64,000 nucleotides of DNA from Deltaproteobacteria bacterium (GTDB lineage Bacteria > Desulfobacterota > Dissulfuribacteria > Dissulfuribacterales > DYLC01): the NCBI GenBank assembly GCA_028695735.1, contig JAQVIJ010000004.1, positions 64,671 to 128,670 on the forward strand. The letters are read 5' to 3'. The translations under genes were made by a program, and so were the position numbers. The notes beneath the pieces are model-generated. The model saw nothing but the letters and a program-made list of their open reading frames with translations, searched no databases and was not told the DNA's origin. Of this stretch, positions 7,409 to 34,971 are shown piece by piece. Positions within the stretch are counted from its first letter, which is position 1. Each line of letters begins with the position of its first letter.

Positions 7409-7421
7409 AATTGTAACGGTA

Positions 7422-8849
7422 ATGAAAGTAGAACACCGAATCATATTATCCAATTTTTTCAACATTATAGTGCTCATTATTGTCATTTTCTTCGCCATTC
7501 AAAACCTCAATCTCGTACTGACAAAATTAAAATTTATACAGATAGCGGACGACCTGAATGCCTCTTTTTTAGAGATACGACTGACCGAAAAAAACTATTT
7601 TCTCTACCGAAACAAAATGAATCTGTATGATATCTTGAACAAGATACGTGAAATAAGATATTCAATAGATAATGTCAGAGATGACATAATCAAAGCAGTC
7701 GGCGAAGATAACTTCAAAATACTCAATAAAAACCTTAATGACTATACCAATGTAATAGCATTAATATCGGAAATAGAAGAAACTAAGATTAACAATAACC
7801 AGACGGAGACAAGCATAAGAGAAGCAGGGAAAAAATTAAGAGAATTCTCAGAGCAAATAACACGGCTTGAACGAACTAACACCAATGAATTAATCATGAA
7901 GTCCCAAAAAATATTGTTATATTCATTTTGGATAATCTTTCTTTCAAGCATTGTAATAAGTCATCTGATATCCAAAAAAATATTGCTATCATTAAAATTG
8001 ATACAAAAATTAACATTATCAATATCGGAAGGCAATTTTAAAACAATAGAAAATGTGGACTGTGATCAAGAATGTAATTCTGTCATCAAAGCCATAAATT
8101 TTATGTCAAATGAATTAAAAAATAGAGAAGAACAACTTATACAATCAAAAAAATTGGCGTCAATAGGTGTAATGACTGCTGGAGTTGCACATGAATTAAC
8201 AAATCCTCTTAATAATATATCGATGCTTGCCCAAACCTACATAGAACTTTACGATAATTTGAGCAAAGATGACAGAATCAATTTTATGAGTAAAGTTGAA
8301 GCTGAAACCGACAGAATGAAAGAGATTGTAAAAAACTTCCTTGATTTCTCCAAACCCAAAAAACCACAACTGGAGCAGATTGACATCAACACAGTTATAC
8401 AAAAAGCTATCAAATTAATGCAGAATATGCTATATATTTCAAACATCGAAACACAACTCAAACTCAACGAGAATTTACCACTAACCTTTATAGATAGAAA
8501 TCAAATACAGCAAGTGTTGGTAAATTTAATAACAAATGCAGTGCAAGCAATGACAAAGAATGGCAAACTTATCATAGTTTCAGACTTGGATGAAAATAAA
8601 AAATATATTAAAATAACTATTACAGACACTGGAAAGGGGATACCTCCTGAATTGCTTCAACATATATTCGATCCATTTTTCAGCACAAAAGGTGAAGGAG
8701 GCACTGGACTTGGCTTGTCAGTAAGTCATGGTATAATTAAAAGTCATAATGGCGATATAACAGTTAAAAGCGAGGTTGGCAAAGGTACAACATTTACCAT
8801 AAGATTACCAATTTATACTAAGATAGAAGGGAGCAAGACAGATGAGTAA
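7422..8849 (+). CDS. Sensor histidine kinase (two TM segments, HAMP-like linker, HisKA, HATPase_c)
   Basis: H-box GVAHELTNPLNN. ATP-lid motifs DTGKGIPPE and GGTGLGLSVSHGII. Very AT-rich coding sequence. Confidence 0.85.
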   Translation: MKVEHRIILSNFFNIIVLIIVIFFAIQNLNLVLTKLKFIQIADDLNASFLEIRLTEKNYFLYRNKMNLYDILNKIREIRYSIDNVRDDIIKAVGEDNFKILNKNLNDYTNVIALISEIEETKINNNQTETSIREAGKKLREFSEQITRLERTNTNELIMKSQKILLYSFWIIFLSSIVISHLISKKILLSLKLIQKLTLSISEGNFKTIENVDCDQECNSVIKAINFMSNELKNREEQLIQSKKLASIGVMTAGVAHELTNPLNNISMLAQTYIELYDNLSKDDRINFMSKVEAETDRMKEIVKNFLDFSKPKKPQLEQIDINTVIQKAIKLMQNMLYISNIETQLKLNENLPLTFIDRNQIQQVLVNLITNAVQAMTKNGKLIIVSDLDENKKYIKITITDTGKGIPPELLQHIFDPFFSTKGEGGTGLGLSVSHGIIKSHNGDITVKSEVGKGTTFTIRLPIYTKIEGSKTDE

Positions 8850-9207
8850 GTCACAAATAATGGTTATTGATGATGAAAAGATAGTTTGCGACATGTCAAA
8901 ACTATCTCTTGAACAGTCGGGATATGAAGTTGAGACATTTCTCAGCGCAGAACCGGCACTGGAGCGGCTTAAGGAAAAAAAATTTGATATAATTGTAACA
9001 GACTACAAAATGAAGGGATTGGATGGCATGGATGTCCTGAAAACTGTCAAAAAACTTTATCCTGATACAAAGGTCATCATGATCACCGCCTTCGCAAATC
9101 TCGAAACCGCTATTGAGGCACTGAGATCGGATGTGCACGATTTTTTCCCTAAGCCGGTCAAAATAAAAGAATTGAAGGCATCCATAGAACGCGCCTTGCA
9201 CGCTTGA
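8842..9207 (+). CDS. Stand-alone response regulator receiver (CheY-like)
   Basis: 121 aa. Has IMVIDDE, the phospho-acceptor context DIIVTDYKMKG and the conserved K in FFPKP. No output domain. Overlaps the kinase stop by 8 nt. Confidence 0.85.
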   Translation: MSKSQIMVIDDEKIVCDMSKLSLEQSGYEVETFLSAEPALERLKEKKFDIIVTDYKMKGLDGMDVLKTVKKLYPDTKVIMITAFANLETAIEALRSDVHDFFPKPVKIKELKASIERALHA

Positions 9208-11796: not shown

Positions 11797-11913
11797 ACTG
11801 ACCTTCTCCTGTTCTTCTTGGGCCTTTCGTGCTATCATATTCAGCATGTCGATGAGCCATGCCGCAGACGGACACCTCCATCCGTATATTCAGGGGTCAT
11901 TAGAAGAGATATT
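11797..11913 (+). repeat. Left copy of a perfect 117-bp direct repeat (island boundary)
   Basis: Identical at 117 of 117 positions to 26418-26534, checked base by base. Confidence 0.95.
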
Positions 11914-11932
11914 GTTATCTAATGCGCTTTAA
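11846..11932 (+). pseudogene. Orphan 5' fragment of the Dna2-like nuclease-helicase gene
   Basis: MSMSHAADGHLHPYIQGSLEEI is identical to the start of the gene at 26467. It diverges in codon 23 and stops after 28 codons. Confidence 0.75.
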
Positions 11933-11935
11933 TTA

Positions 11936-11964
11936 TTGCAATAGCTATCATATATGGCTATATA
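11936..11964 (+). promoter_or_regulatory. Candidate sigma70-type promoter for the island operon
   Basis: TTGCAA (11936-11941), 17-nt spacer, TATAAA (11959-11964), in the AT-rich 190-bp stretch just inside the left junction. About 135 nt upstream of ATG 12101. Confidence 0.35.
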
Positions 11965-12100
11965 AAGATAATTGAGCAGTTGTGAAAACAGTAAATTCAA
12001 ACAGGCTCAATCTCCAAATTCACGACTATTATGAGTATTACGAACAGCGTAAAATCGGAATACTGTTCTTTGTTGATGTAGGGAACAGCGGGGGGCACTC

Positions 12101-15100
12101 ATGATTAAGACGGTCAAGCAGGCCTGCCGGTTCAATCCAATCATTCGGGACTACCGGATGAGCCAGGGAATCGAGAACCTGGTAGAACTCATCAATGACG
12201 CGGGCGACGGTCGCGAGTTCTTCTCGCGCAACTACGTCACGCACGGCATGGAGCAGCTCTTCCGTGAGGGGCTGCTGCGCCTGTCGGGTAAGTCAGATCA
12301 GGCGGTCTTCGAGCTCACCCAGGCTATGGGCGGTGGTAAGACCCATATGATGATCGCACTTGGCCTGCTCGCGCGTCATCCGCATCTGCGTAAGGACGTC
12401 TTGCCCGCCGACTTGACGTCTCGCATTGAATTTGACCAGGCACGTATCGCCGCCTTCAACGGTCGCAACAACCCAGACAACTACATCTGGGGGGAGATCG
12501 CAAGTCAGCTTGGCGCCGAGGATGCCATCAAGCCCTACTGGGCGAACGGTCCCAAGGCCGTCGATCAGCGAAAGTGGAAGGAAATCATTGGTTATGAGCC
12601 GACATTGATTTTGCTGGATGAGCTGCCGCCCTATCTGGACAACGCCAGCACCCAAGTGTTCGGTCAGGGCACGCTGGCCAAGATGGTGGTCTACAGCCTC
12701 TCCAGCCTCATGAGCGCAGCGCTGGAGTTACCGCGTTGTGCCATCGTGATTGCCAACCTATCTGGCAGTTACACGCAGGCGACCAAGGCCTTGCGTGAGG
12801 CGATCTCCAATCTCCAACAAGAGACGCGGCGTCAGGCCATGACCATCACGCCGGTGCAACTGGCCGGCAATGAAATCTACGAAATCCTCAAGAAGCGCCT
12901 TATCGACGAACTGCCTGATGAGCGCGTCATCTCCGACATCGCGGAGGAGTACGCGCAGCAAATCAAGAAGGCGGAGGACGGCGGCTACATCGTGGCCAGC
13001 AGCATCGAGCAAATCGCAGAAGAGGTGCGCCAGACCTATCCATTTCACCCCTCGTTCAAGCACCTTGTCGCGCTATTCAAGGAGAATGAAGGCTTTCGCC
13101 AAACTCGCGGCCTGATGCAGTTTACCGCGCGTCTCCTCAAAAGCGTCGAGGACCGTGAAACGGATGATGTCTTCCTCATCGGCGCACAGCATCTCAATCT
13201 CAATGATGATCAGGTCAGGGATGAGATCGAGCGCATCGCACCCAAATTGATGCCAGCGGTGACGCATGACATCGCCGACAACGGCAATGCAATTGCCGAG
13301 CACATCGACGACGAGCTGGGGTCGGACGCCGCACGCCAGGTGATGACTCTACTGCTTGCCTCGAGTCTGTCTCGCGTGGTTGGCGGGCGGATCGGCCTTT
13401 CCGAGAGCGAGCTCATCGAGTTCCTGGCCGCCCCGCAGCGCAAGCCGGACGAATTTCTCCAGGCCCTGCAGCGGCTGCGCGAGGCCGCCTGGTACCTGCA
13501 CCGGGAGGAGCAGCGCTTCTTCATCAAAGAAACCGAGAATCTTTCGCGTCAGATCGAGCGCAACGCAAAGGAAATTCCTCAGCCCAAGATTGATCAGGCG
13601 CTGATCAATCGGCTCACCGGCATCCTTGAGCCAGTTCGCAAAATTGCCTACCAGGAGGTGCAGGTTCTGCCCAAGCTCGACGAATTGAAGCTCTCCGGCC
13701 CGCGGACGCTCATCGTCATCAAGCCAGATGGCAAGGTTCCGCCCAGTGAGCTCCAGAACTTCTTTGACTATCAGACGGAAAAGAACAACCTACTGGTGCT
13801 GACCGGCCAGGATAGCTTGTTGGCCGACGCTGTCGAGGAACGGTTGCGCGAGTTATATGCCATCGAGCAGATTCACAAACGGCTTCGCCCTGGAGACACC
13901 CTTTACGAAGAGGCTCGTGATCGTCTGGAAGATGCCGAACAGCGCTTCAACAAAGCGCTCTCGGCGGCCTACAACCGGCTCTACTTCCCGGTGAACGACC
14001 CGGGCGATGACCGTGACGTTTTGGCCGGCGTCACCATCGATCAAGGGCTGAAGCTCGGCCAGGGCGATCAGTCCGCCGAAGCTCAGATCGAGAGTCTGCT
14101 CGCAAGCCCAATAGCGAATTACAAGCTCGTGCGCGAGCTGACAAAAGACAACCTGAACGAATACTTTGCCATGGCCGAGGAGTATCTCTGGCCCAAAGGC
14201 GCAGATAACCGCCGCACGCCGTGGAAAGACGTCGTCACGCGCGCCAAGTGTTCACCCATCTGGCCCTGGATGCCGGGCGCGAGCGGTCTGGATACCCTCA
14301 AGACCGAGGCGTTGAAGCAAGGGCGCTGGCGTCTCGGTGAAGACGGCTACATTGAGAAAGGGCCATTCCCCAAGGACAAGGCCACCGTCAACGTGTCCGT
14401 CATCAACGTCAAGGCGGACACTGGTGAGACGGTGTTGAGCCTCACACCACGCCACGCAGGTGAAAGCCCGGTCGTCTATTGGTCGACCAAGCCTGACGTG
14501 TCCGACAAGGATCACAAGGTCGAGGACTTGGACAACTTCAGTTCGACTGAAGGCACCCTGTACTTCTGGGTCAAGGACACCACTGGGCAACATGAAAGCG
14601 CTCCCCCCGTGCGCTGGCTGGCCGACCTCAAGATCCGTCATCAGGTCGAACCTGCCGCCGACAAGCGCCGTGTCACCCTGGCCGTCACGCCGCGCGCCGA
14701 TCTCTTCTATACCTTGGACGGTTCCAACCCCAAGGACGGCACCCGCTACGACGGGCCGTTCGAGATTGGGTCGGCGAGCTGCCGTCTGCTGGTGTTCGCT
14801 CGTGCAGGCGAAGCTAACAAGACGGCGGACTTTCAGATTCCTGCCAGTGGTGACAAAATGGTTCAGATCGTAGATAGCAAGCCGGCGCGTCTGCAAAGCA
14901 AACGCGTCGCTCTCGACACGACTGACCGCGTCTTCGGCGTCATCAACCGTTTCCGCGATCAGCCGGGCACGCGTTTCAAGGGAGTGCGGGTCGAAATCGG
15001 CGAAGGCGAGAACACCGTGACTGTCCGCTTCCAAGAGCGTGAGGTTACAGCCGCCATCATCGAAGGCGTGGTCAACAGCCTGCGCGAGGTGCTCAAAGAG

Positions 15101-15223
15101 CCTAACGCACCGCTCACCATAGTCATCAACGGTGTTCACTTCGACACTGGCTTCGCGTTGAAGGAGTTTGCCACGCTTGCCGGAATCGAATTGAAGCCGG
15201 GCGAAGTGATTCAGGAGGATTGA
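12101..15223 (+). CDS. Large DUF499-type P-loop ATPase
   Basis: 1040 aa. Walker A AMGGGKTHMM and Walker B TLILLDELPPY. The N-terminal pattern is recognised as the DUF499 family. The C-terminal region has an Ig-like FYTLDGSNPKDGTRYDGPFEI motif. Confidence 0.75.
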   Translation: MIKTVKQACRFNPIIRDYRMSQGIENLVELINDAGDGREFFSRNYVTHGMEQLFREGLLRLSGKSDQAVFELTQAMGGGKTHMMIALGLLARHPHLRKDVLPADLTSRIEFDQARIAAFNGRNNPDNYIWGEIASQLGAEDAIKPYWANGPKAVDQRKWKEIIGYEPTLILLDELPPYLDNASTQVFGQGTLAKMVVYSLSSLMSAALELPRCAIVIANLSGSYTQATKALREAISNLQQETRRQAMTITPVQLAGNEIYEILKKRLIDELPDERVISDIAEEYAQQIKKAEDGGYIVASSIEQIAEEVRQTYPFHPSFKHLVALFKENEGFRQTRGLMQFTARLLKSVEDRETDDVFLIGAQHLNLNDDQVRDEIERIAPKLMPAVTHDIADNGNAIAEHIDDELGSDAARQVMTLLLASSLSRVVGGRIGLSESELIEFLAAPQRKPDEFLQALQRLREAAWYLHREEQRFFIKETENLSRQIERNAKEIPQPKIDQALINRLTGILEPVRKIAYQEVQVLPKLDELKLSGPRTLIVIKPDGKVPPSELQNFFDYQTEKNNLLVLTGQDSLLADAVEERLRELYAIEQIHKRLRPGDTLYEEARDRLEDAEQRFNKALSAAYNRLYFPVNDPGDDRDVLAGVTIDQGLKLGQGDQSAEAQIESLLASPIANYKLVRELTKDNLNEYFAMAEEYLWPKGADNRRTPWKDVVTRAKCSPIWPWMPGASGLDTLKTEALKQGRWRLGEDGYIEKGPFPKDKATVNVSVINVKADTGETVLSLTPRHAGESPVVYWSTKPDVSDKDHKVEDLDNFSSTEGTLYFWVKDTTGQHESAPPVRWLADLKIRHQVEPAADKRRVTLAVTPRADLFYTLDGSNPKDGTRYDGPFEIGSASCRLLVFARAGEANKTADFQIPASGDKMVQIVDSKPARLQSKRVALDTTDRVFGVINRFRDQPGTRFKGVRVEIGEGENTVTVRFQEREVTAAIIEGVVNSLREVLKEPNAPLTIVINGVHFDTGFALKEFATLAGIELKPGEVIQED

Positions 15224-15225
15224 GG

Positions 15226-15858
15226 ATGGCACAAGCCAAGGCCGCAGCCAATACCGAATCACCGAAGCCGCGCTCACAAATGCCGCATACGCTGGGCTTC
15301 GGGGTGCCGGCCACCTCTGACCCGCATCACTTCAAGGTGATTATCCCCAGGAGCAGCACGGGCAAGGTCTTGATCAGCGAGTACCTCGGTCTGCAATCGG
15401 CCTCGGCGGAGAGTGCGGTGATCGACCGCGTCTTGCTCGACAGGCCGCGCTGGACAGCGATCCGTGCCGAAGTGCAGCGAGCCTTCAACGCCCGCCTCAC
15501 CGCACATGGCCTGAAGCCCAGCGCGTGGAAAGTCGGCGAAAACCTGGTGGACCGCCTGCTCGGCAAGGAGCTCTGTGTCCTTGCCTGGGCTGTGGAGCAG
15601 ATGGATGCTGACAGAATTCCTGTTGCCGTGCGGAATTGGCTCGCACTGCGGCCAGAAGAACGCTGGTGGCTGTTTGGCATGACCGCCATGACAACCGGCG
15701 GGGTGATGGATGGAGGCAAGGGGTGGCGTGCCGCCCTTCAGCACGCCTTGGGCGATGTGGTGCAGAGTGAGTTGCTCGCTCTTCGTGCCCGACGTGGCAA
15801 GCTGGAACAGAAAGTTGCCCAGGTCTCATTAGGGCTGTTCGGAGACGAAGTGCCATGA
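15226..15858 (+). CDS. DUF3780-like small protein (usual partner of DUF499/DUF1156)
   Basis: ATG 15226 is preceded by caggagg. The track start at 15220 is a TTG. The family call rests on memory of the conserved DUF499-DUF3780-DUF1156 gene order. Confidence 0.5.
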   Translation: MAQAKAAANTESPKPRSQMPHTLGFGVPATSDPHHFKVIIPRSSTGKVLISEYLGLQSASAESAVIDRVLLDRPRWTAIRAEVQRAFNARLTAHGLKPSAWKVGENLVDRLLGKELCVLAWAVEQMDADRIPVAVRNWLALRPEERWWLFGMTAMTTGGVMDGGKGWRAALQHALGDVVQSELLALRARRGKLEQKVAQVSLGLFGDEVP

Positions 15859-16520
15859 ACACCGTACCCCAGAAGCCCAAAATTTATCACATCGTCCATG
15901 TGGATCGTCTGCCCTCCATCGTGGCCGCCGGCTTCCTCTGGTGCGACGCGGAGGTCATTCGTCGTGCGCTCGCGGGTACGACCATCGGCATGAGCAGAAT
16001 CAAGCAGCGGCGCTTGACCCTGCCACTGAACAGCCACCCCGATCTGCACGTAGGCGACTGCGTGCCGTTTTACTTCTGCCCGCGCTCGGTGATGCTGTAC
16101 CTGATCTACCAGGGCAATCATCAGGATCTGGAGTATCGCGGCGGGCAGGCCCCAATCCTGCATCTCGAAGCGGATCTGCATGCCACCGTTGCTTGGGCAC
16201 AAGCCCAACAGAGGCGGTGGGCCTTCACCCTCTCGAACGCCGGTTCGTACTTCTTCGAGGACCGTTGCGATTTGGCATGCCTCGACGAAATCGACTGGGC
16301 GGCCGTTCAAGCCCTGGACTGGCAGCAGTGCAAGGAAGGCAAGCAAGCCGAGTTTCTGCTGGAGCACAGCTTTCCCTGGCACCTGATCGAGCGCATCGGC
16401 GTGCTCAATTACACGATCTATCAACAAGTTGTGAAGGCCCTTCCGCTAAACGGACACCGACCTACGGTCAAAATCTGCGAGGATTGGTATTACCGAGAAA
16501 TGAGAGGAGCACAGCTATGA
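15855..16520 (+). CDS. darT: DarT ssDNA thymidine ADP-ribosyltransferase (DUF4433 toxin)
   Basis: 221 aa. KIYHIVHVDRLPSI start, CVPFYFCPRSVMLY, and KQAEFLLEHSFPW carrying the catalytic-Glu context. ATGA overlaps on both sides. Confidence 0.8.
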   Translation: MNTVPQKPKIYHIVHVDRLPSIVAAGFLWCDAEVIRRALAGTTIGMSRIKQRRLTLPLNSHPDLHVGDCVPFYFCPRSVMLYLIYQGNHQDLEYRGGQAPILHLEADLHATVAWAQAQQRRWAFTLSNAGSYFFEDRCDLACLDEIDWAAVQALDWQQCKEGKQAEFLLEHSFPWHLIERIGVLNYTIYQQVVKALPLNGHRPTVKICEDWYYREMRGAQL

Positions 16521-17566
16521 TCGAGTTCACCTCGGGTGACATTCTGAAGTGTGAGGCCGACGCGCTGGTCAACACCGTCAACTGCGTCGGCATGATGGGT
16601 CGCGGGATTGCCTTGCAGTTCAAGAACGCCTTCCCTGAGAACTTCAAGGCCTATGAGGCTGCGTGTAAGCGCCAGGCCGTGCAGCCTGGGCTTATGTTTG
16701 TCTTTGAAACAGGGCAGCTCACGCCACCGCGCTTCATCATCAACTTTCCGACTAAGCGCCATTGGCGCGGCAAGAGCCGCATCAAGGACATCGAAGCAGG
16801 TTTGGTCGATCTGGTTCGGGTCATTCGCGAAAAGGGTATCCGCTCCATCGCCATCCCACCGCTGGGCTGTGGCTTGGGGGGCTTGGACTGGCGCGAGGTG
16901 CGCCCCCGCATCGAGCAAGCGTTGGAGCAACTGGCAGACGTGCACGTGCTCGTGTTCGAGCCCAACGGTGCACCCACCACGGACAAGATGACCCATGTGC
17001 GTGAAGTGCCGGCCATGACCGCGGGTCGCGCGGCCCTCGTTGAGTTGATTCACCGTTACCTTAGTGGCCTGCTCGACCCCTTCGTGACCTTGCTCGAGGT
17101 GCACAAGCTGATGTACTTCATGCAGGAGGCAGGGGAGCCGCTGCGCCTGAAGTACGTCAAGGCACCTTATGGCCCCTACGCCGAGAACCTGCGCCATGTG
17201 CTGCGCACGGTCGAGGGACACATGATCGCGGGTTACGCCGACGGCGGCGATGCGCCAGACAAGCCTCTGACGCTGGTTCCCGGCGCCATCCAGGAGGCAT
17301 CCGCCTTCCTCGACCAACATGCCGACAGCCGTGAACGCTTCGAGCGTGTCACCCGCCTCATCGAGGGCTTTGAGTCGCCCTATGGCCTCGAGCTGCTCTC
17401 GACCGTGCATTGGGTCATGACGCGCGAGGGCGGCAGCCAGCTCGATGACGTGGCCGAGCGCATCTACGCCTGGCACCCGCGCAAGCGTCAGTTCACGCTT
17501 CGACAGATTGCTATCGCTGCCGACAGACTGACCGCCCAAGGTTGGGTGCAGGCAGCGACCGCTTGA
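16517..17566 (+). CDS. darG: DarG macrodomain antitoxin (DNA ADP-ribosyl glycohydrolase)
   Basis: Start at ATG 16517 (MIEFTSGDILKCEADALVNTVNCVGMMGRGIALQFK, macrodomain). 349 aa with a C-terminal partner-binding domain. The upstream 192 codons of the track ORF overlap darT out of frame. Confidence 0.8.
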   Translation: MIEFTSGDILKCEADALVNTVNCVGMMGRGIALQFKNAFPENFKAYEAACKRQAVQPGLMFVFETGQLTPPRFIINFPTKRHWRGKSRIKDIEAGLVDLVRVIREKGIRSIAIPPLGCGLGGLDWREVRPRIEQALEQLADVHVLVFEPNGAPTTDKMTHVREVPAMTAGRAALVELIHRYLSGLLDPFVTLLEVHKLMYFMQEAGEPLRLKYVKAPYGPYAENLRHVLRTVEGHMIAGYADGGDAPDKPLTLVPGAIQEASAFLDQHADSRERFERVTRLIEGFESPYGLELLSTVHWVMTREGGSQLDDVAERIYAWHPRKRQFTLRQIAIAADRLTAQGWVQAATA

Positions 17567-17579
17567 AAAACCCCTCGCC

Positions 17580-20519: not shown

Positions 20520-20523
20520 AGAG

Positions 20524-20937
20524 ATGAAATCCGATTTTTTGGATGCCCACGAACGCCATTGGCAAGACGCCGAAACGCTCTTTTGGAGGAAGCGCTGGGC
20601 TAATGCAGATCATCTTTATGGCATGGCGGCCGAGTGTGGATTGAAACGCTTGATGCTGGCCTTTGGGATGCCATATGACACCCAAAATGATCGCCCTGAA
20701 GAAAAAGAGGATCGGGTCCACGCCAACGGCATCTGGGCACGCTTCGAGAGCTACAGCGGCTATCACCAGGGTGCCGGCTACGCGTTGCCAGCGCCCAATC
20801 CTTTCGGCAATTGGGATGTGGCGCAGCGTTATGCCCACCAATCCAACTTTGACCGTGAGCGAGTGGATGCGCATCGCAAAGGTGCCAATTCGGTGCGCGG
20901 CCTGGTCCATAAGGCGCTGCTGGATGGGTTAATATGA
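20524..20937 (+). CDS. Hypothetical 137-aa helical protein (possible HEPN-like, speculative)
   Basis: ATG 20524 lies 7 nt after a ggggag SD. Helix-rich sequence with an R-x5-H (RERVDAH) near the C-terminus. No confident family match. Confidence 0.5.
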   Translation: MKSDFLDAHERHWQDAETLFWRKRWANADHLYGMAAECGLKRLMLAFGMPYDTQNDRPEEKEDRVHANGIWARFESYSGYHQGAGYALPAPNPFGNWDVAQRYAHQSNFDRERVDAHRKGANSVRGLVHKALLDGLI

Positions 20938-22253
20938 TGACTTTCGACGAGATTCTGCCAACAGTTCGAGAAATGCTTGACGCGCATCAAGCAGATGTGA
21001 AACGGATCGATTGGTTGCTCATCAACCGAGATCTTTATGGTCGGGTGCGGTTGATCGCCCCGGAAACTGCGCGGGAGGATGACGCCTCTCGCACCGCCCT
21101 GGAAACACTGGCGGTGCGCTTCGCCGAGCGGCTCGGTGCACATGCCTACCCGCCCGACTTGGCCATTCTCTATGAAGCCGATAAAAAGCTGGCTTTCCAG
21201 GGCGCCGCAGCCTTCCGGCTCGAAGGCCATGACAACGTGTGGTTGGTGGACCGCCTGGCGACCGAGAGCAACTGGGCAAGCATTGCGCCAGAAAGCACGG
21301 GTGCGCCGCGAGTCGTCTTCTTTTCCATCAAAGGAGGCGTGGGGCGATCGACCGCAGTGGCGGCTTGTGCATGGAAATTGGCGCAGTTGGGCAAACGGGT
21401 GCTGGTTCTCGATCTGGACCTGGAATCTCCTGGGCTATCGACTCATCTACTCCCATTCGAGCGCCAGCCTCGCTATGGGATCACCGATTGGCTGGTCGAG
21501 GACCTCGTGGATAACGGGCAGAGCGTATTCGAGGAGATGTACGCCACCAGTGAATTAGCTCGGGACGGAGAGATTTACGTCGTGCCTGCCCACGGTAGAG
21601 AAGCGGGCGAATATGTGGCTAAACTGGGCAGAGTATGGATGCCAAAAATCCATTCGGAAGGGAGGCGTGACTCATGGTCTCGCCGTTTGCAGCGCCTCTT
21701 GCAGGCGTTGGAAGAGCGTCTCCGTCCGGATGTGATCTTGATCGACTCGCGTGCCGGAATCGATGAGATAGCCTCTGCCTGCGTGACCGATCTATGTGCG
21801 AACCTGGTGTTGTTATTCGCACTGGATGGCAATCAGACCTGGAGCGGTTACCGGATTCTCTTCCAGCATTGGTTGCGCGCCGGCGTTGCGCAGGAGATAC
21901 GCAAAAGATTGCAGATCGTCGCTGCTTTGGTGCCTGAAATCGCCCCTTCTGATTATTTGGCTGATTTGCGTGAACATGCCTATGATCTCTTCCTCGATAC
22001 CTTGTACGACGAGATCGAACCTGCGGATACCGAGGGGTGGAGTTTCGACTTGGCGGATGAAACGGCGCCGCATCGACCGTTGGCGGTGCGCTGGCATCGT
22101 GGCTTTGCCGCCTTACGCACCCTGTATGGAAGGTTTGAGCAGATCGATGAGAATGAGATTCGGCTTGTATTTGGCGATTTGATCGATTTCCTCTTGTATT
22201 ATTTGGAGTGGGGTGATGGGTACATCCAAGTTATCGATGGAGGTAGGTTTTGA
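20934..22253 (+). CDS. ParA/MinD-like ATPase with a deviant KGGVGR Walker A and an unknown ~125-aa N-terminal domain
   Basis: VVFFSIKGGVGRSTAVAACAWKLAQLGKRVLVLDLDLESPGL, and Walker B-like VILIDSRAGIDE. ATGA overlap with the upstream gene. Confidence 0.7.
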   Translation: MMTFDEILPTVREMLDAHQADVKRIDWLLINRDLYGRVRLIAPETAREDDASRTALETLAVRFAERLGAHAYPPDLAILYEADKKLAFQGAAAFRLEGHDNVWLVDRLATESNWASIAPESTGAPRVVFFSIKGGVGRSTAVAACAWKLAQLGKRVLVLDLDLESPGLSTHLLPFERQPRYGITDWLVEDLVDNGQSVFEEMYATSELARDGEIYVVPAHGREAGEYVAKLGRVWMPKIHSEGRRDSWSRRLQRLLQALEERLRPDVILIDSRAGIDEIASACVTDLCANLVLLFALDGNQTWSGYRILFQHWLRAGVAQEIRKRLQIVAALVPEIAPSDYLADLREHAYDLFLDTLYDEIEPADTEGWSFDLADETAPHRPLAVRWHRGFAALRTLYGRFEQIDENEIRLVFGDLIDFLLYYLEWGDGYIQVIDGGRF

Positions 22254-23662
22254 GTAATGAAATTGCCATGATCAATACATACGTCCTGCGGGAAGCCATT
22301 CTCGCCGCACCATTGGAAACCAGCAATTTCGGAGAGGTGCCAAACGCCGGACAGCTCTATGTGCCGCCTTCGCACCTCAAGGCGCTACGCCTGGAAGCGC
22401 AGATCGTCGTGGGTGGTCGTGGCGTGGGCAAGTCATTCTGGACGGGCGTGTTGCAGTCGGATTCACTGCGTTCCTTGGTTAGCAAGGATGCGCAGGAACT
22501 TGCTGATGTAGTGGTTCGGGTCGGTTTTGCGGCTTCAGAAAACATGGCCATGTACCCAAACGCCGATGTCTTTGCAAACTTTCTCGATAAAGAAGGAGAC
22601 CCCTACGATTTGTGGCGCGCTGTGATACTGCGTTGGGTCGCAGAGATGTCTGGACAGAGGATTCCCTGCCAAAGCTGGATGGAGACCGTTGCCTGGATGA
22701 AGGATCAACCGGAAGACGCAGCGCTTCTGATGCAGCAGCCGCGAAACTGGCGTGGCTTGATCGTGTTCGATGCACTCGATCGCACCAGTAACGACTGGAA
22801 TCGGATGGATGTCATCGTACGTGGGCTGCTGCGCGCGATACTGTGGCTCAAGTCTTTCCGAGGACTCTACGGCAAGGTATTTCTGCGCGAAGACCAGGCG
22901 AAACGTACGGTATTCAACTTTCCCGATGCCTCGAAACTGATGGCGACTAAGGCCGAGTTGACCTGGGCCAGGCACGATCTGCACGGGTTGCTCTGGCAGC
23001 GCCTGATCAATGCCCCTAACGAGCATGGAGAAATCATGCGCAAGATTTGTGCCCACGAGCAGCGTGAAGGCATTTGGCGAGTCGCTGCTGAAATGACCCG
23101 TGATTCCGAAGCGCAGCGCAAGGCTTTCGAGCAGTTGGCTGGTCCTTGGATGGGGCGTGATAAGCGCCGTGGTGTTCCTTACACCTGGTCGGTCGGACAT
23201 CTGGCAGATGCCCGCGGCCAGACTTCCCCACGCTCGTTTCTTGCGGCTATTCGTCAGGCAGCGGAGGATTCAAGTGAGCGGTATCCTGATCACGACTATG
23301 CACTACATTACGAGAGCATCAAACGTGGTATTCAGAAGGCCTCAGAAATCAGGGTACAGGAAGTGGCGGAGGATTATCCTTGGATTAAGGACGTTCTCTC
23401 TGTTTTGAAGGGAATGAATGTGCCATGCGCTTACGAGGATATCGTGCAGCGTTGGCAGCAGCAATTTCCAGACGGACCCCAGGGTATATATTCAGAGCGG
23501 CTTCCGGCGCAACATGCCATTCAAGGCTGGGATGGGATTCGTGAGGACTTGATGCAGCTTGGACTGATCGAAGTTAAGAAAGATGGGCGCATCGATATGC
23601 CCGATCTTTACCGCGTGGGTTTCGGCTTGGGCCGCAAAGGCGGCGTGAAGCCCAGGAATTGA
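22250..23662 (+). CDS. P-loop NTPase of unknown function (resembles the family I recall as Sll1717-type)
   Basis: Walker A VVGGRGVGKSFWTG and Walker B LIVFDALDR. The TTG start at 22250 overlaps the upstream stop. An alternative ATG is at 22268. Confidence 0.6.
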   Translation: MSNEIAMINTYVLREAILAAPLETSNFGEVPNAGQLYVPPSHLKALRLEAQIVVGGRGVGKSFWTGVLQSDSLRSLVSKDAQELADVVVRVGFAASENMAMYPNADVFANFLDKEGDPYDLWRAVILRWVAEMSGQRIPCQSWMETVAWMKDQPEDAALLMQQPRNWRGLIVFDALDRTSNDWNRMDVIVRGLLRAILWLKSFRGLYGKVFLREDQAKRTVFNFPDASKLMATKAELTWARHDLHGLLWQRLINAPNEHGEIMRKICAHEQREGIWRVAAEMTRDSEAQRKAFEQLAGPWMGRDKRRGVPYTWSVGHLADARGQTSPRSFLAAIRQAAEDSSERYPDHDYALHYESIKRGIQKASEIRVQEVAEDYPWIKDVLSVLKGMNVPCAYEDIVQRWQQQFPDGPQGIYSERLPAQHAIQGWDGIREDLMQLGLIEVKKDGRIDMPDLYRVGFGLGRKGGVKPRN

Positions 23663-23668
23663 GGCGGG

Positions 23669-26422
23669 ATGGCCATTCGCCGCTTCTCCTCACGCACCCA
23701 CCGGCTCGATGTCAGCTTCCTGATGCAGCATCTGGTCGGTGCCAGGAGCTACAAGCGCATTGCCGGCTACTTCACTAGCTCGCTGTTCGAGGTGGCCGGC
23801 GAGGTGCTGGAAGAGATTCCGGAAGTCAAGATCGTCTGCAATGTGGACATTCACCCGGACGACCTGAAGGTGGCACAGTTGCGCGAAAGCAAGATGCTGG
23901 GCCGTTGGAACGAGCGCGGGATAGAGGCCGAGGCGCTCTTAAACCGCGAACGCTACCGGCGTCTGGATGCCTTTCTCCAGAAGCATGGGCAGGCGGTACG
24001 GGTCGCACCCGACGACATCTGTGGCTTCGTCCACGGCAAGGCCGGAGTGATCACGCTTGCCGATGGCCGCAGACTGGCTTTCATCGGGTCGATGAACGAG
24101 ACAAGAAGCGGCTGGCAGCGCCACTACGAAATCCTGTGGGAGGATGAGTCACCAGAGGGTGTTGCGTGGCTCGAGGAGGAGTTCGAATTCCTATGGAACG
24201 CCGCCAAGCCGCTGCCCCAGGCGGTCATTCGCGAGGTGCATCGCCGTGGCTATCGCCGCGAGGTGGTCTTCGATGAGATCGATGAGGACGAGAACCTTGC
24301 TCCCGCCGCCCTGATCGAGTCGCCGCTCTACCGCGAAGGGCAGCAACTTCAGCCTTGGCAGCAAGGGTTTTTGACCGAGTGTTTGCGCCACTACCGACTC
24401 TACGGCGTGGTGCGGCTGTTGCTCGCCGACGAGGTTGGCCTGGGCAAGACGCTGTCGCTCGCCACCGCTGCGCTGACGCTGTGCCTGCTGTCGGATAAGG
24501 AAAACGGTCCGCGCCGTCCGGTGGTGATCTTCGCTCCCGCCACTCTGACTGAGCAATGGCAGACCGAGATGCTGGACAAGCTGGGCATCCCGACCGCCCG
24601 GTGGGATACCGTGCGCAAGGTGTGGCTGGACGCGGAGGAGCGCGCCATTTCTCCGGCGGGCCGCGAGCAGGTGGCATGTTGTCCGCTGCGCATCGGCATC
24701 ATCTCCACTGGCCTCATGATGCGCGATTCATCGGAGAAGCAGCATCTCCTGGGCTTGCGATTTGGCGTGGTCATTCTGGACGAGGCGCACAAGGCGCGCA
24801 CGCGCCAAGGCTTTGGCAAGGAAGCCGGAACGCCGAACGAACTGCTGGCGTTCATGCGCGAGATCGCCGCCCGGGCCGATCACGTGCTGCTGGGAACGGC
24901 CACGCCGATTCAGACCAACCCTGTCGATCTGTGGGATCTGCTGGGCATCCTGCATCAGGGCTCGGAACGCTTCGTGCTGGGTCATGACCTTGCGCCATGG
25001 CACCGGCCAGAAGACGTGCTCGACATCCTGGCAGGCCGCGTTCAGGTGGAATCGCTGACCCATGCGTGGGAACTGTTGCGGTCGCCACTTCCGCGCATGG
25101 AATCAACCAGTGAGCCTCGCGCCCGGCGCTTGTTCTCGGCCATCCGGCAAGACCTGGGATTGCAAAGCGGGGAGTGGCAAACCAATCGTTCGCTGGCCGA
25201 TCTGACGGAAGAAACGCGGGAGATTCTGGAGGAGGAACTGGAGCGTCGCATAGCAGGTGCCACGCTATTCCAGCGCGAAAACCCTCTGGTACGCCATGTG
25301 GTACTGCGTAAGCGCCAGCAGCTCGAAGAAACGAAGGACAAGGATGGCAGACCCTTGCTGACCCCCGTAGGTGTGGATGTTCATCCCGACCGCGACAAGG
25401 TCATGGAGCAGCGCGGCTTCGATGCCTTGTTTGAAGGCAAGGCATTGCGCACCTCGGAGGACTTCCGCCAGGCTTATTGCGAGGCCCGCGCTTTTGGCAA
25501 GGCGCTGGCCAAACGCGGCAGGGGCAGCGGCTTCATGAAGAACCTGCTGGAACAGCGCATCTGTTCCAGCATTCAGGCAGGACTTGCAACAGCTCAAAGG
25601 CTTTTGCAAGGAGATGCCTTACATGAGGAAGGGGACGAGTTCGAGACAGACCTGAAAGTCGAAACGGACGAAGAACGCAAGATTCTTGAGCATCTGATCG
25701 ACCGTCTCCAGCGGCTAAGTAGCGATCCCAAGATGGAGGCCGTGATCCACTTTCTTGACAAGGAGAAGTGGCTGAATCTTGGCGTGATCATCTTCAGCCA
25801 GTACTACGACACCGCCAAATGGCTTGCAGATGAACTTGCCGCACGATATTCCGAGGAGGCCATAGGCCTCTATGCGGGTGCAGGACGCAGCCGCCTCTAC
25901 CAACGAAGTGACAGCGTTGCTGTGGAGCGTGAGACCCTAAAGCGCATGGTCGCCGAGCACCAGATTCGAATCATGGTGGCGACGGATGCTGCATGTGAGG
26001 GTCTCAATCTACAGACGCTCGGCACTTTGATCAATGTGGACCTACCGTGGAATCCGACGCGATTGGAACAGCGCCTTGGCAGAATCAAGCGCTTTGGCCA
26101 AAGGCGAGAAACCGTTGACATGCTCAACCTGGTCTTTGAACAGACGGTTGATGAGAAGATATACCAAAGGCTGTCCGAGCGTATGCGTAACCGCTATGAC
26201 TTATTTGGGTCCCTGCCTGATACTATCAAAGACGAGTGGATTGAGGACATCGAGTCCCTTGGAGAAAAACTGGATGAATATATCAACGCCCAGAAAAGGG
26301 CGACTGGCTTTGATCTACGCTACACGGCAACCATGAGTCCCCAGGATAGAGAGTGGCGGGACTGCACAGAGGTTTTGTCACGACGGGATGTGGTGCAGTT
26401 AATGACCACCCCCTGGAACTGA
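23669..26422 (+). CDS. PLD-family nuclease domain fused to an SNF2/DEAH helicase
   Basis: Single HKD motif (FVHGKAGVITL..GSMNET). Helicase motif I LLADEVGLGKT, motif II VILDEAHKAR, and C-terminal LATDAACEGLNLQ..NVDLPWNP..EQRLGRIKRFGQ. Confidence 0.8.
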   Translation: MAIRRFSSRTHRLDVSFLMQHLVGARSYKRIAGYFTSSLFEVAGEVLEEIPEVKIVCNVDIHPDDLKVAQLRESKMLGRWNERGIEAEALLNRERYRRLDAFLQKHGQAVRVAPDDICGFVHGKAGVITLADGRRLAFIGSMNETRSGWQRHYEILWEDESPEGVAWLEEEFEFLWNAAKPLPQAVIREVHRRGYRREVVFDEIDEDENLAPAALIESPLYREGQQLQPWQQGFLTECLRHYRLYGVVRLLLADEVGLGKTLSLATAALTLCLLSDKENGPRRPVVIFAPATLTEQWQTEMLDKLGIPTARWDTVRKVWLDAEERAISPAGREQVACCPLRIGIISTGLMMRDSSEKQHLLGLRFGVVILDEAHKARTRQGFGKEAGTPNELLAFMREIAARADHVLLGTATPIQTNPVDLWDLLGILHQGSERFVLGHDLAPWHRPEDVLDILAGRVQVESLTHAWELLRSPLPRMESTSEPRARRLFSAIRQDLGLQSGEWQTNRSLADLTEETREILEEELERRIAGATLFQRENPLVRHVVLRKRQQLEETKDKDGRPLLTPVGVDVHPDRDKVMEQRGFDALFEGKALRTSEDFRQAYCEARAFGKALAKRGRGSGFMKNLLEQRICSSIQAGLATAQRLLQGDALHEEGDEFETDLKVETDEERKILEHLIDRLQRLSSDPKMEAVIHFLDKEKWLNLGVIIFSQYYDTAKWLADELAARYSEEAIGLYAGAGRSRLYQRSDSVAVERETLKRMVAEHQIRIMVATDAACEGLNLQTLGTLINVDLPWNPTRLEQRLGRIKRFGQRRETVDMLNLVFEQTVDEKIYQRLSERMRNRYDLFGSLPDTIKDEWIEDIESLGEKLDEYINAQKRATGFDLRYTATMSPQDREWRDCTEVLSRRDVVQLMTTPWN

Positions 26423-26534
26423 CCTTCTCCTGTTCTTCTTGGGCCTTTCGTGCTATCATATTCAGCATGTCGATGAGCCATGCCGCAGACGGACACCTCC
26501 ATCCGTATATTCAGGGGTCATTAGAAGAGATATT
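26418..26534 (+). repeat. Right copy of the perfect 117-bp direct repeat
   Basis: Identical to 11797-11913. It starts 2 nt before the TGA of the helicase gene and contains the start codon of the next gene. Confidence 0.95.
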
Positions 26535-29391: not shown

Positions 29392-29568
29392 CAATCCATG
29401 AGCAATCTTCACCTGTCATCTGTTGTGCCCCCAGTATTGACAGTACACCCCTGTGGGAAAGGGTCGCTTGTGTCTGGGCATCTGGCAACGCATCTTTTTT
29501 TGCGAATTTGACGGGCCTCGCACTCGCAATCTTTGGATAAAGACCGTATAAGAAACTATTATTTTGGC

Positions 29569-29685: not shown

Positions 29686-29705
29686 ATCTTTTTTTGGAGG
29701 GAATC

Positions 29706-34843: not shown

Positions 34844-34871
34844 TCAATTCTGCTGCAATGTATAAATGAAT

Positions 34872-34919
34872 AAGGACGATGCGGTCACACAGTCCGCATC
34901 GTCCTTATCGGCTTTTTTT
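34872..34919 (+). terminator. Rho-independent terminator of the glt-like operon
   Basis: aaggacgatgcgg / ccgcatcgtcctt stem with a 9-nt loop, followed by atcggcttttttt. Confidence 0.75.
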
Positions 34920-34971
34920 GAAGACTGTCATCGTATCCTGATGTTTTTACGCCTCTTGAGGAGTATGAAAT

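What the first reader, a model, noticed from the sequence alone, without database searches (positions are those of the whole stretch)
11797..26534. Perfect 117-bp direct repeats bracket a 14.5-kb island that duplicated the promoter and first 22 codons of its target gene, with no recombinase found
**What the sequence shows**
- 11797-11913 and 26418-26534 are identical at all 117 positions (compared base by base).
- Each copy holds 49 bp of upstream DNA plus codons 1-22 (MSMSHAADGHLHPYIQGSLEEI) of the Dna2-like gene.
- The right copy continues in frame into the 974-aa gene. The left copy hits a stop after 28 codons.
- The right junction is tight: the TGA of the last island gene (26420-26422) lies inside the repeat.
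- Spot GC counts on 60-nt lines gave 58 and 72 percent inside the island. I did not compute a full profile.
- I found no integrase, transposase or excisionase-like ORF between 11.7 and 29.6 kb. The tRNA-Arg at 29613 is not part of the repeat.

**Interpretation**
- This looks like a Campbell-type insertion that regenerates the 5' end of a protein-coding target. The enzyme would be supplied in trans, or the event was homologous recombination.
- The perfect repeat identity suggests a recent event.
- After insertion, the Dna2-like gene can also be reached by read-through from the island operon.
Basis: seen in the sequence. Interest (0 to 1): 0.65.

Follow-up and report, generated by a model that had tools for sequence, protein, structure and literature searches.

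The report
Defence operon inserted with 117-bp target duplication
A 14.5-kb anti-phage operon with no recombinase of its own was inserted next to a nuclease-helicase gene in an uncultured sulfate-reducer-type bacterium, duplicating 117 bp of the target; this is a clean new example of the known but unexplained "insertion with long target duplication".

Summary
Window 11797-11913 and 26418-26534 are identical over 117 bp and occur nowhere else in the window.

**What lies between the repeats**
- The 14,504 bp form one nine-gene operon.
- Its core is a type-2 BREX-related system: DUF499 ATPase, DUF3780, DUF1156 N6-methyltransferase and a PLD/SNF2 nuclease-helicase.
- DarT/DarG and the PDC-M28ABC module are nested inside it.

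**Evidence that it is an insertion**
- Two independent contigs (L006, L016) carry the empty site with a single repeat copy.
- At least seven other contigs carry one or the other junction.
- More distant relatives keep the Dna2-like gene in synteny.

**Mechanism**
- No recombinase, transposase or terminal inverted repeats are present, and no end sequence is shared with 80 related islands.
- The last gene's native stop codon coincides with the repeat's first 5 nt (ACTGA), which looks like a microhomology joint.
- Three related islands in other bacteria have 70-168-bp flanking repeats at unrelated targets: the rnc 5' end, the tRNA-Phe flank, and downstream of argC.

**Classification**
This matches "insertion with long target duplication", described for restriction-modification systems (Nobusato 2000; Furuta 2010). 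It meets every criterion of that class. The mechanism remains inferred. I rate it a new member of a known kind, of moderate interest.

The parts
11797..11913 (+). Left copy of the 117-bp direct repeat: 49 bp upstream plus codons 1-22 of the Dna2-like gene.
   Evidence: The same sequence is present once at the empty sites L016 (identical) and L006 (1 mismatch).
11846..11932 (+). Truncated 28-codon ORF: the Dna2-like N-terminus followed by LLSNAL and a stop. It was created by the insertion.
   Evidence: Read directly from the sequence.
11914..12083 (+). 170-bp AT-rich left end of the insert. It has no homology to the upstream regions of 80 related islands, and its origin is unknown.
   Evidence: Homology to relatives begins at 12084.
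12101..15223 (+). DUF499 AAA+ ATPase with FnIII-like domains (BrxC-like), a core gene of the type-2 BREX-related system.
   Evidence: NF042962, 1538 bits against a cut-off of 1200. System described in PMC12839542.
15226..15858 (+). DUF3780 protein, the marker of type-2 BR systems.
   Evidence: NF042961, 279 bits against a cut-off of 200. Gene start taken.
15855..16520 (+). DarT, a ssDNA thymidine ADP-ribosyltransferase toxin, nested in the operon.
   Evidence: (PF14487, 5.6e-60).
16517..17566 (+). DarG, a macrodomain antitoxin.
   Evidence: Macro domain; DarG, 5.5e-141. Gene call of 349 aa.
17580..20519 (+). DUF1156 N6-adenine DNA methyltransferase. It contains two mosaic tracts (18188-18363 and 18682-19016) that differ by about 18% between strains.
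   Evidence: NF042963, 1400 bits against a cut-off of 1000. Mosaic tracts.
20524..20937 (+). PDC-M28A, a small protein with a HEPN-like predicted fold.
   Evidence: pLDDT 85; top PDB matches are HEPN proteins, probability 0.97-1.0, but E-values are about 0.1.
20934..22253 (+). PDC-M28B, a ParA/MinD-like ATPase of the KGGVGR-motif variant.
   Evidence: NF047398, 204 bits against a cut-off of 90.
22250..23662 (+). PDC-M28C, an ORC/Cdc6/BrxC-like AAA+ ATPase related to the Sll1717 family.
   Evidence: pLDDT 76. ORC/Cdc6 and BrxC chains, E-values from 7e-5.
23669..26422 (+). PLD (HKD) nuclease fused to an SNF2 helicase, the effector of the system. Its native stop codon lies in the first 5 nt of the right repeat.
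   Evidence: NF042964, 1213 bits against a cut-off of 1100; homologues end ...PWN* or ...AWG* at the same position.
26418..26534 (+). Right copy of the 117-bp direct repeat. It continues into the intact target gene.
   Evidence: The same junction is seen in L099, L179, L180 and L181.
26467..29391 (+). Target gene: a Dna2/Cas4-like nuclease fused to an SF1 helicase (974 aa). It is a vertically inherited chromosomal gene.
   Evidence: Synteny with the glutamate-synthase genes is kept in relatives that are 76-77% identical.

Best explanation
**What it is**
- The 14,504 bp between the repeats (11914-26417) is a horizontally acquired anti-phage operon.
- Its core is a type-2 BREX-related system. 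A DarTG toxin-antitoxin pair and a HEPN/ATPase module (PDC-M28ABC) are nested in it.
- It landed in the divergent promoter and 5' region between a nifX-like gene and a Dna2-like nuclease-helicase gene of an uncultured Desulfobacterota (formerly Deltaproteobacteria) population.

**How it arrived (inferred)**
- It is an "insertion with long target duplication", not site-specific recombination.
- A piece of foreign DNA ending exactly at the operon's stop codon was joined by illegitimate, microhomology-assisted end joining to a broken target.
- The two chromosome ends overlapped by 112-117 bp. This could be a staggered break, or two sister chromosomes broken at different points. The overlap became a direct repeat.
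- The break may have been caused by the incoming nuclease acting on a not yet methylated chromosome, as proposed for restriction-modification systems.

**Consequences**
- The duplication spans the start codon, so the target gene stays intact. That is probably why this particular insertion survived.
- The repeats then allow RecA-dependent loss, amplification, or re-integration of a circle. Flanking homology lets the island spread between strains.

**Shown versus inferred**
- Shown: insertion, target duplication, absence of a recombinase, and polymorphism in the population.
- Inferred: the joining mechanism and the role of a double-strand break.
For: - The repeat is exact and unique.
- Empty sites with one repeat copy exist in L006 and L016.
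- Occupied junctions were assembled independently in L001, L002, L099, L179, L180 and L181.
- Logan island unitigs are 14,564 bp, which equals 14,504 plus 2 x 30.
- The Dna2-like gene is syntenic in relatives that are 76-77% identical.
- All nine island proteins are defence-type with no recombinase. The two unannotated ones fold as HEPN-like and ORC/Cdc6/BrxC-like.
- No inverted repeats occur at the ends.
- Homology to 80 related islands runs only from 12084 to the stop codon at 26420-26422, so there is no shared att or end sequence.
- Homologues end ...PWN*/...AWG* at the same position. The repeat's first 5 nt, ACTGA, are therefore also the island's native end, giving a microhomology joint.
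- The island's closest relatives are Beta- and Gammaproteobacteria, at 79-81% for the methyltransferase and 87-91% for DUF499. Island GC is higher than the flanks.
- 3 of 56 related loci have 54-168-bp flanking repeats at unrelated targets, against 1 of 278 mismatched control pairs.
- All criteria of Furuta et al. 2010 are met: R and M homologues present, insert under 20 kb, repeat over 30 bp, no mobility genes, empty site present. That paper also notes that such repeats often span a start or stop codon and so spare the target gene.
Against: - The joining mechanism is not observed.
- The donor sequence to the left of 11914 is unknown, so microhomology at the left joint cannot be checked.
- Treating ACTGA as native island sequence rests on homologues (AAT TGA in L024), not on the actual donor.
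- The rest of the genome was not searched for a recombinase that could act in trans.
- In L060 the two rnc copies are mosaic, which fits a carried homologous copy (Campbell-type via homology) at least as well as a fresh duplication.
- Occupied and empty alleles occur in more than one strain background. Most present-day copies therefore probably arrived by homologous recombination rather than by the founding event.
Confidence: 0.55

Rival explanations
1. Campbell-type integration by a site-specific recombinase supplied in trans. Under this view the island is a non-autonomous, CIME-like element, or the decayed remnant of an integrase-bearing island, and the 117 bp is its att site.
For: - Direct repeats that regenerate the end of a target gene are the classic signature of integrase-mediated integration.
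- The same nine-gene operon is cargo on integrase- or relaxase-bearing elements in Stenotrophomonas and other bacteria.
- In E. coli a related core DUF499 system (DUF499, DUF3780, DUF1156, PLD-helicase) sits in an IS-rich island.
- L021 and L019 lie next to tRNA-Phe.
Against: - There is no recombinase or remnant of one within the repeats. Only 187 bp of non-coding DNA lie on the left and 0 bp on the right.
- Related islands share no end sequence.
- The repeats of relatives are unrelated in sequence and target.
- Identity is perfect over 117 bp with sharp edges, although the island comes from a distant phylum.
- In L021 the repeat is the tRNA's 3' flank plus only 6 nt of the tRNA, not the tRNA 3' half.
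- The repeat is absent from viral contigs.
- Only this cargo, or nothing, is seen at the site.
Confidence: 0.15
2. RecA-mediated Campbell integration. A circle made of the island plus one repeat copy, excised from another strain by recombination between its repeats, re-integrated by a single homologous crossover at the resident 117 bp. This explains spread but not how the first repeat-flanked copy arose.
For: - The island is present and absent in at least two strain backgrounds (L179 and L181 against L016; the window against L006). SNP patterns around the site are mosaic.
- The L060 rnc copies are mosaic. Codons 1-12 are 64% identical with synonymous codon swaps, and codons 13-39 are 95% identical.
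- Furuta et al. proposed such a "virus-like" cycle of release and re-infection.
Against: - Ordinary double-crossover recombination in the flanks explains spread between strains equally well, without a circle.
- No circular junction could be detected, because k=31 graphs cannot resolve a 117-bp repeat.
- It does not explain the founding event.
Confidence: 0.2
3. Assembly artefact. The chromosome is empty and the island is a separate molecule that the assembler threaded in through the shared 117 bp.
For: The window comes from a metagenome-assembled genome, and short-read graphs break at the repeat.
Against: The left junction was assembled in two independent JGI samples. The right junction was assembled in four others, and both appear in the MAG. 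Empty-site contigs come from different samples.
Confidence: 0.03

Closest known systems
Insertion with long target duplication of restriction-modification systems (Nobusato et al. 2000, Gene 259:99; Furuta, Abe and Kobayashi 2010, PMC2853133)
   Same: - A methyltransferase-plus-nuclease defence unit under 20 kb, with no mobility genes.
- It is flanked by a long direct repeat that is single-copy at the empty site of a close relative. The published range is 26-423 bp; here it is 117 bp.
- The repeat spans a translation start, so the target gene survives.
- The insert differs in GC from the host.
   Different: - The cargo is a BREX-related four-gene system with two nested modules, not a classical type I-IV RM system.
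- The host is an uncultured Desulfobacterota lineage.
- A 5-nt microhomology at one joint is visible here.
- The mechanism is unknown in both cases.
Integrase-mediated genomic islands and prophages that regenerate the end of the target gene (Campbell model)
   Same: Direct repeats bracket the element, the target gene's end is restored, and presence/absence is polymorphic.
   Different: There is no integrase or excisionase, no conserved attP among related islands, different unrelated targets, and a joint at a microhomology.
CIMEs, cis-mobilisable elements flanked by att sites but lacking recombination genes (Streptococcus thermophilus; from my own knowledge, not checked here)
   Same: A repeat-flanked island without its own recombinase.
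   Different: CIMEs share att sites with a cognate ICE at the same locus. No such partner element or alternative occupant was seen here.
Type-2 BR (BREX-related, DUF499-centred) defence systems (PMC12839542)
   Same: DUF499 ATPase with FnIII-like domains, standalone DUF3780, N6-methyltransferase and HKD-helicase, in the same order.
   Different: That paper does not mention DarT/DarG, integrases or direct repeats. Here DarTG and PDC-M28ABC are inserted between the core genes.
Homology-facilitated illegitimate recombination during natural transformation (de Vries and Wackernagel 2002; from my own knowledge)
   Same: Foreign DNA is joined at short microhomologies without a dedicated recombinase.
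   Different: HFIR needs one homologous anchor and usually deletes recipient DNA. Here both joints appear illegitimate and the target is duplicated.

Membership tests
Insertion with long target duplication (Furuta et al. 2010 criteria) | Direct repeat longer than 30 bp flanking the insert. | tested here: met
   117/117 identical.
Insertion with long target duplication (Furuta et al. 2010 criteria) | Empty site with a single repeat copy in a closely related genome. | tested here: met
   L016 has 117/117 and flanks about 99% identical. L006 has 116/117 and flanks 99.6-99.9% identical.
Insertion with long target duplication (Furuta et al. 2010 criteria) | The insert is under 20 kb and contains both modification and restriction (nuclease) homologues. 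| tested here: met
   14,504 bp, with a DUF1156 N6-methyltransferase and a PLD nuclease-SNF2 helicase.
Insertion with long target duplication (Furuta et al. 2010 criteria) | No linked mobility genes (integrase, transposase). | tested here: met
   Pfam, PADLOC, NCBIfam and PHROGs on all ORFs. Fold searches of the two unannotated proteins.
Insertion with long target duplication (Furuta et al. 2010 criteria) | The repeat is not a high-copy genomic repeat. | tested here: inconclusive
   Only two copies occur in the 64-kb window, and one per related contig. The rest of the genome was not available.
Integrase-type genomic island (site-specific, Campbell) | A tyrosine or serine recombinase is encoded in the element. 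| tested here: not met
   None found.
Integrase-type genomic island (site-specific, Campbell) | attP or end sequence, or the target site, is conserved among related elements. | tested here: not met
   Homology to 80 relatives is confined to the operon. The repeats of L021, L024 and L060 are unrelated and at different targets.
Integrase-type genomic island (site-specific, Campbell) | A circular excised form and a recombinase acting on the repeat. | not testable with these tools
   Needs reads or PCR, and the rest of the genome.
DNA transposon | Transposase, terminal inverted repeats and a short target duplication. | tested here: not met
   No transposase, no inverted repeat pairing the two ends, and a duplication of 117 bp.
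Type-2 BR (BREX-related) system (PMC12839542) | DUF499 ATPase, DUF3780, N6-methyltransferase and HKD-helicase in one locus. | tested here: met
   NCBIfam equivalogs NF042962, NF042961, NF042963 and NF042964 all score above their cut-offs. Fn3-like hits occur in DUF499.
Type-2 BR (BREX-related) system (PMC12839542) | Anti-phage activity and DNA methylation. | not testable with these tools
   Needs experiment.
DarTG toxin-antitoxin | A DarT ADP-ribosyltransferase next to a macrodomain DarG. | tested here: met
   PF14487 at 5.6e-60, a Macro domain, and PADLOC DarG at 5.5e-141.

The most novel reading that the evidence does not exclude
BREX-related defence operons of this clade may be self-mobilising without any recombinase.
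- Their own nuclease-helicase would break the naive chromosome.
- The operon would be captured at the break with a long target duplication.
- The repeat-flanked unit would then excise, perhaps persist or amplify, and re-enter homologous targets in new hosts. This is the "virus-like life cycle" proposed but never evidenced for RM systems.

The restriction of flanking repeats to islands that carry the PDC-M28 module (3 of 7 against 0 of 49, p = 0.0013; 4 of 8 with the window) would mean that this ParA-like plus ORC/Cdc6-like plus HEPN module contributes to the process. The mosaic rnc repeat in L060 would be a trace of re-integration.
Probability: 0.1. Interest if true: 0.75.

Novelty: new member of a known kind. 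Interest (0 to 1): 0.42.

Why it matters
How defence systems move when they carry no mobility genes is an open question. Long target duplications around restriction-modification genes were described 25 years ago and never explained.

This locus extends the phenomenon to the BREX-related family. It offers an unusually clean case:
- a perfect repeat;
- both alleles present in natural populations;
- one joint resolved to a 5-nt microhomology at the operon's stop codon.

It also shows the same operon family both as cargo of integrase or relaxase elements and as a "naked" repeat-flanked insert. For annotation, it warns that a repeat-flanked island without an integrase need not be a degraded integrative element.

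Tried and rejected
- **Recombinase inside or beside the island.** Pfam, PADLOC, NCBIfam and PHROGs found none. ORF 29694-30848, next to the tRNA, has no hit and is conserved upstream of the glutamate-synthase genes in relatives, so it is not an integrase.\n- **PDC-M28A or M28C as hidden recombinases.** AlphaFold models and PDB fold searches give a HEPN-like fold and an ORC/Cdc6/BrxC-like AAA+ fold.\n- **Transposon ends.** No inverted repeat pairs the two island ends.\n- **A conserved att or end sequence among 80 related islands.** None found.\n- **The repeat as a phage attP.** It is absent from viral contigs.\n- **A plasmid or phage vehicle.** There is no near match to the island.\n- **A known RNA in or near the repeat.** Rfam finds only tRNA-Arg.\n- **A promoter in the repeat.** No consensus match on the + strand.\n- **CRISPR spacers against the island.** None.\n- **An ancient fixed duplication.** Rejected, because empty sites exist in near-identical strains.\n- **A fresh target duplication as the sole explanation for relatives.** The L060 repeat is mosaic. 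This remains unresolved.\n- **Circular junction.** It cannot be seen in k=31 unitigs or in the available contigs.\n- **The source genome in the GTDB representatives.** It was not recovered with the island query.
Full report
**1. Checking the observation**

A repeat search of 10-30 kb returns one outstanding family: 11797-11913 and 26418-26534, 117 nt, 100% identical. Direct string comparison agrees. A 55-nt core of the repeat occurs exactly twice in the 64-kb window even with three mismatches allowed, and never in shuffles.

Reading the sequence gives the following:
- Each copy holds 49 bp of upstream DNA, the ATG, 21 further codons and two more bases.
- The left copy reads on into LLSNAL-stop, a 28-codon ORF at 11846-11932.
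- The right copy reads into the 974-aa gene at 26467-29391.
- The TGA of the preceding gene (26420-26422) lies inside the right copy.

Two details need correction. In 1-kb windows the island is 0.55-0.65 GC against roughly 0.33-0.57 in the flanks, a moderate difference. No sigma-70-type promoter is detectable in the 49 duplicated upstream bases, so "duplicated the promoter" is unproven.

**2. What lies between the repeats**

The 14,504 bp form a single, tightly packed nine-gene operon on the + strand. In order:

| Gene | Identity |
|---|---|
| 1 | DUF499 AAA+ ATPase with Fn3-like domains |
| 2 | DUF3780 |
| 3 | DarT |
| 4 | DarG |
| 5 | DUF1156 N6-methyltransferase |
| 6-8 | PDC-M28A, B and C |
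| 9 | PLD (HKD) nuclease fused to an SNF2 helicase |

- The four core genes match the NCBIfam equivalogs NF042961-NF042964 ("anti-phage-associated") above their cut-offs.
- They correspond to the "type-2 BR" BREX-related system described in PMC12839542.
- DarTG and PDC-M28ABC occupy two slots that are filled or empty in different relatives.
- M28B is a ParA/MinD-like KGGVGR-motif ATPase.
- I modelled the two unannotated proteins. M28A (pLDDT 85) resembles HEPN domains, though E-values are only about 0.1. M28C (pLDDT 76) resembles ORC/Cdc6 and BrxC AAA+ ATPases.

Nothing in the island resembles a recombinase, transposase or excisionase in Pfam, PADLOC, NCBIfam or PHROGs. No inverted repeat pairs the two ends.

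**3. The surroundings**

- The left flank carries proB, proA, a ComM-like gene, a histidine kinase and response regulator, two MinD/Fer4 genes and a nifX-like gene.
- The right flank carries the Dna2/Cas4-like nuclease-SF1 helicase, tRNA-Arg(CCT), archaeal-type glutamate-synthase genes and a type I-C CRISPR-Cas locus.
- Exact-sequence look-ups identify the source as a MAG labelled "Deltaproteobacteria bacterium". Its relatives are in Dissulfuribacterales and Desulfurivibrionaceae.
- The ORF next to the tRNA (29694-30848) has no family hit. It is conserved in front of the glutamate-synthase genes in relatives, so it is not an integrase.

**4. Is it an insertion?**

Yes.

*Contigs found through the nifX-like protein*:
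- Two JGI contigs carry the left junction (L001, L002).
- Four Logan unitigs stop exactly 30 nt into the repeat. This is the expected break of a k=31 graph where two paths merge.
- One Logan contig, L006, runs flank, one repeat copy, then the Dna2-like gene.

*Contigs found through the Dna2-like protein and its homologues:*
- The 99% homologue of the Dna2-like protein gave a second empty site, L016. Its repeat is identical and its flanks are about 99% identical.
- Island unitigs are 14,564 bp, which equals 14,504 plus 2 x 30.
- The right junction is assembled independently in L099, L179, L180 and L181.
- In relatives whose Dna2-like protein is 76-77% identical, the gene keeps its position next to the glutamate-synthase genes. 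It is therefore a vertically inherited chromosomal gene, and the empty state is ancestral.

An assembly artefact is very unlikely given six independent junction contigs. The relatives do not all carry two diverged copies.

**5. Age and spread**

- Outside two short tracts, island copies from different samples differ from the window by 0-5 sites per kb outside a denser patch at 25-26 kb (section 9), and some are identical over 6 kb.
- The island occurs both in the window-type background and in the L016-type background. The latter has an extra 5.7 kb downstream of the Dna2-like gene.
- SNPs in the Dna2-like gene are mosaic and do not track occupancy.
- In the left flank the empty L006 differs from the window at one site outside the repeat, 11763. 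It shares that base with the other empty contig.

The picture is a recent acquisition now segregating in a recombining population.

**6. Where it came from, and how relatives sit in their genomes**

A scan of species-representative genomes with the methyltransferase returned 80 loci. All of the closest are Beta- or Gammaproteobacteria, at 79-81% identity for the methyltransferase and 87-91% for DUF499.

- Nucleotide homology between the window and these loci begins 17 bp before the first ATG (12084). It ends at the last stop codon.
- The 170 AT-rich bases at 11914-12083 match nothing, and there is no shared terminal sequence.
- The nuclease-helicase of relatives ends ...PWN* or ...AWG* at the same position. 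For example, L024 ends TGG AAT TGA against the window's TGG AAC TGA.
- The repeat's first five bases, ACTGA, therefore belong both to the island's native end and to the target. That is a microhomology joint. The host-derived duplication is 112-117 bp.

Of 56 loci with both flanks available, three have flanking direct repeats. Mismatched controls gave 1 hit in 278 pairs.

| Locus | Repeat | Target |
|---|---|---|
| L060 | about 100-118 bp | 5' end of rnc, within lepB-ialB-rnc'-island-rnc-era |
| L021 | 70 bp | Terminator flank of tRNA-Phe plus 6 nt of the tRNA |
| L024 | 168 bp, 95% identical | Downstream of argC |

The targets are unrelated. No integrase lies inside any of the three.

Elsewhere the operon travels on recognisable mobile elements:
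- In Stenotrophomonas and other bacteria, the same nine-gene operon is cargo of elements with AlpA, a DUF3987 primase-like protein, a MobA relaxase or a tyrosine integrase.
- In E. coli, a related core DUF499 system (DUF499, DUF3780, DUF1156, PLD-helicase, without DarTG or PDC-M28) lies in an IS-rich island.

Vehicles therefore exist. The window copy is the naked operon.

**7. Mechanism**

A dedicated site-specific system predicts a recombinase, a conserved attP and a preferred target. None is seen.

[quoted passage not shown] - unrelated targets;
- an insert cut exactly at the operon's end;
- a microhomology joint;
- a methyltransferase-plus-nuclease cargo;
- a repeat spanning a start codon so the target gene survives.

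That class covers RM systems of types I-IV flanked by 26-423-bp repeats, with no mobility genes and an empty site in a relative. Its repeats often span start or stop codons (PMC2853133). Those authors proposed that a double-strand break, a property shared by all RM types, is involved. They also proposed that repeat-flanked units can amplify and perhaps be released and re-inserted. They noted that there was no evidence for the last steps.

My best account has three steps:
1. Capture of the foreign operon at a broken target whose two ends overlapped by about 115 bp. This is inferred.
2. Selection for the variant that kept the Dna2-like gene intact.
3. Spread between strains by homologous recombination. 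This is supported by the mosaic SNP patterns.

The L060 repeat is mosaic. Codons 1-12 of rnc are 64% identical, with synonymous codon swaps such as CTT/TTA and CGT/AGG. Codons 13-39 are 95% identical. Two readings fit. The island may have carried a foreign rnc 5' piece and re-integrated by homology. Or a later recombination tract may have ended inside the repeat. I cannot separate these.

**8. Rivals**

- *Integrase in trans, or a decayed integrative element.* This cannot be excluded without the rest of the genome. It is disfavoured by the points above, by the absence of the repeat from viral contigs, and by the absence of any other cargo at the site.
- *RecA-mediated Campbell integration of a circle.* This is compatible with spread but cannot found the structure.
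- *Assembly artefact.* Very unlikely.

**9. Things noticed along the way**

- *Repeats and PDC-M28.* Flanking repeats were found only in islands that carry PDC-M28ABC: 3 of 7 against 0 of 49, Fisher p = 0.0013. This may simply mark a young, recently mobile clade.
- *Methyltransferase mosaic.* The gene has two tracts, 18188-18363 and 18682-19016, that differ by about 18% between strains and are mostly synonymous. That indicates recombination with a diverged homologue.
- *Decaying target gene.* In one island-bearing contig (L099) the Dna2-like gene has a 385-bp deletion and is truncated.
- *Helicase SNP cluster.* Several strains show 14-15 differences in the helicase C-terminal region at 25-26 kb.

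**10. Verdict**

The best-fitting category is the known, mechanistically unresolved "insertion with long target duplication", here extended to a BREX-related system. It is a new member of a known kind, of moderate interest.

Noticed in passing
window 18188-18363 and 18682-19016 (DUF1156 methyltransferase): Two tracts differ by about 18% (92 nt, only 25 amino-acid changes) between the window and island copies in L001, L008, L009, L013 and L014. The rest of the island is nearly identical. This looks like gene-conversion tracts from a diverged homologous methyltransferase.
   Followed up: partly
window 25000-26000 (helicase C-terminal part): A cluster of 14-15 differences per kb in L099, L179, L180 and L181 (7 in L013), against 1-5 per kb in the rest of the helicase gene in these copies. 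This is a second localised mosaic patch.
   Followed up: no
L099 4018-5160 and onward (window 26623-27007 and 28149): In one island-bearing contig the Dna2-like gene has a 385-bp deletion and is cut at window 28149. There it is joined to a truncated ArsP-type permease and AddB/AddA-like genes. The target gene may be dispensable or decaying, or the contig may be chimeric.
   Followed up: partly
window 29430-29449; L016 6796-12471: L016, L179 and L181 carry an extra 5.7 kb between the Dna2-like gene and tRNA-Arg: a hydrolase, an aminotransferase, a HAD phosphatase, TatA, and a histidine kinase with its response regulator. The window has about 18 unrelated bp instead. The segment is flanked by an imperfect ~17-bp repeat, CATCTG(TG)TTGTGCCCTGT.
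   Followed up: partly
window 34847-49212: The type I-C CRISPR-Cas locus (cas3 to cas1 at 35.3-43 kb) and an 81-repeat array (43423-48794) are absent from the syntenic region of relatives L017 and L018. No spacer matches the island.
   Followed up: partly
window 11763: This is the only flank SNP that tracks occupancy. It is G in the window and the five other occupied contigs that cover it, and A in both empty-site contigs (L006, L016), 34 bp left of the repeat.
   Followed up: no
L019-L098 (related islands): Flanking direct repeats occur only in islands that carry PDC-M28ABC (L021, L024, L060; 3 of 7 against 0 of 49, p = 0.0013). L019 and L021 both sit next to tRNA-Phe in the same orientation.
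   Followed up: partly
window 20524-20937 and 22250-23662: PDC-M28A is predicted to have a HEPN-like fold, and PDC-M28C an ORC/Cdc6/BrxC-like AAA+ fold. The uncharacterised PDC-M28 candidate therefore looks like a HEPN plus two-ATPase module nested in a BREX-related operon.
   Followed up: partly
L182-L187 (Stenotrophomonas and others); L188 (E. coli E67): In L182-L187 the same nine-gene operon is cargo of elements with AlpA, DUF3987, a MobA relaxase, IS3 or a tyrosine integrase. In E. coli E67 (L188) a related four-gene core DUF499 system lies in an IS-rich island next to Ag43 and pap genes.
   Followed up: partly
window 7000-9000: The histidine kinase and response regulator pair lies in a markedly AT-rich stretch (GC 0.33-0.38, against about 0.52-0.55 nearby).
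   Followed up: no
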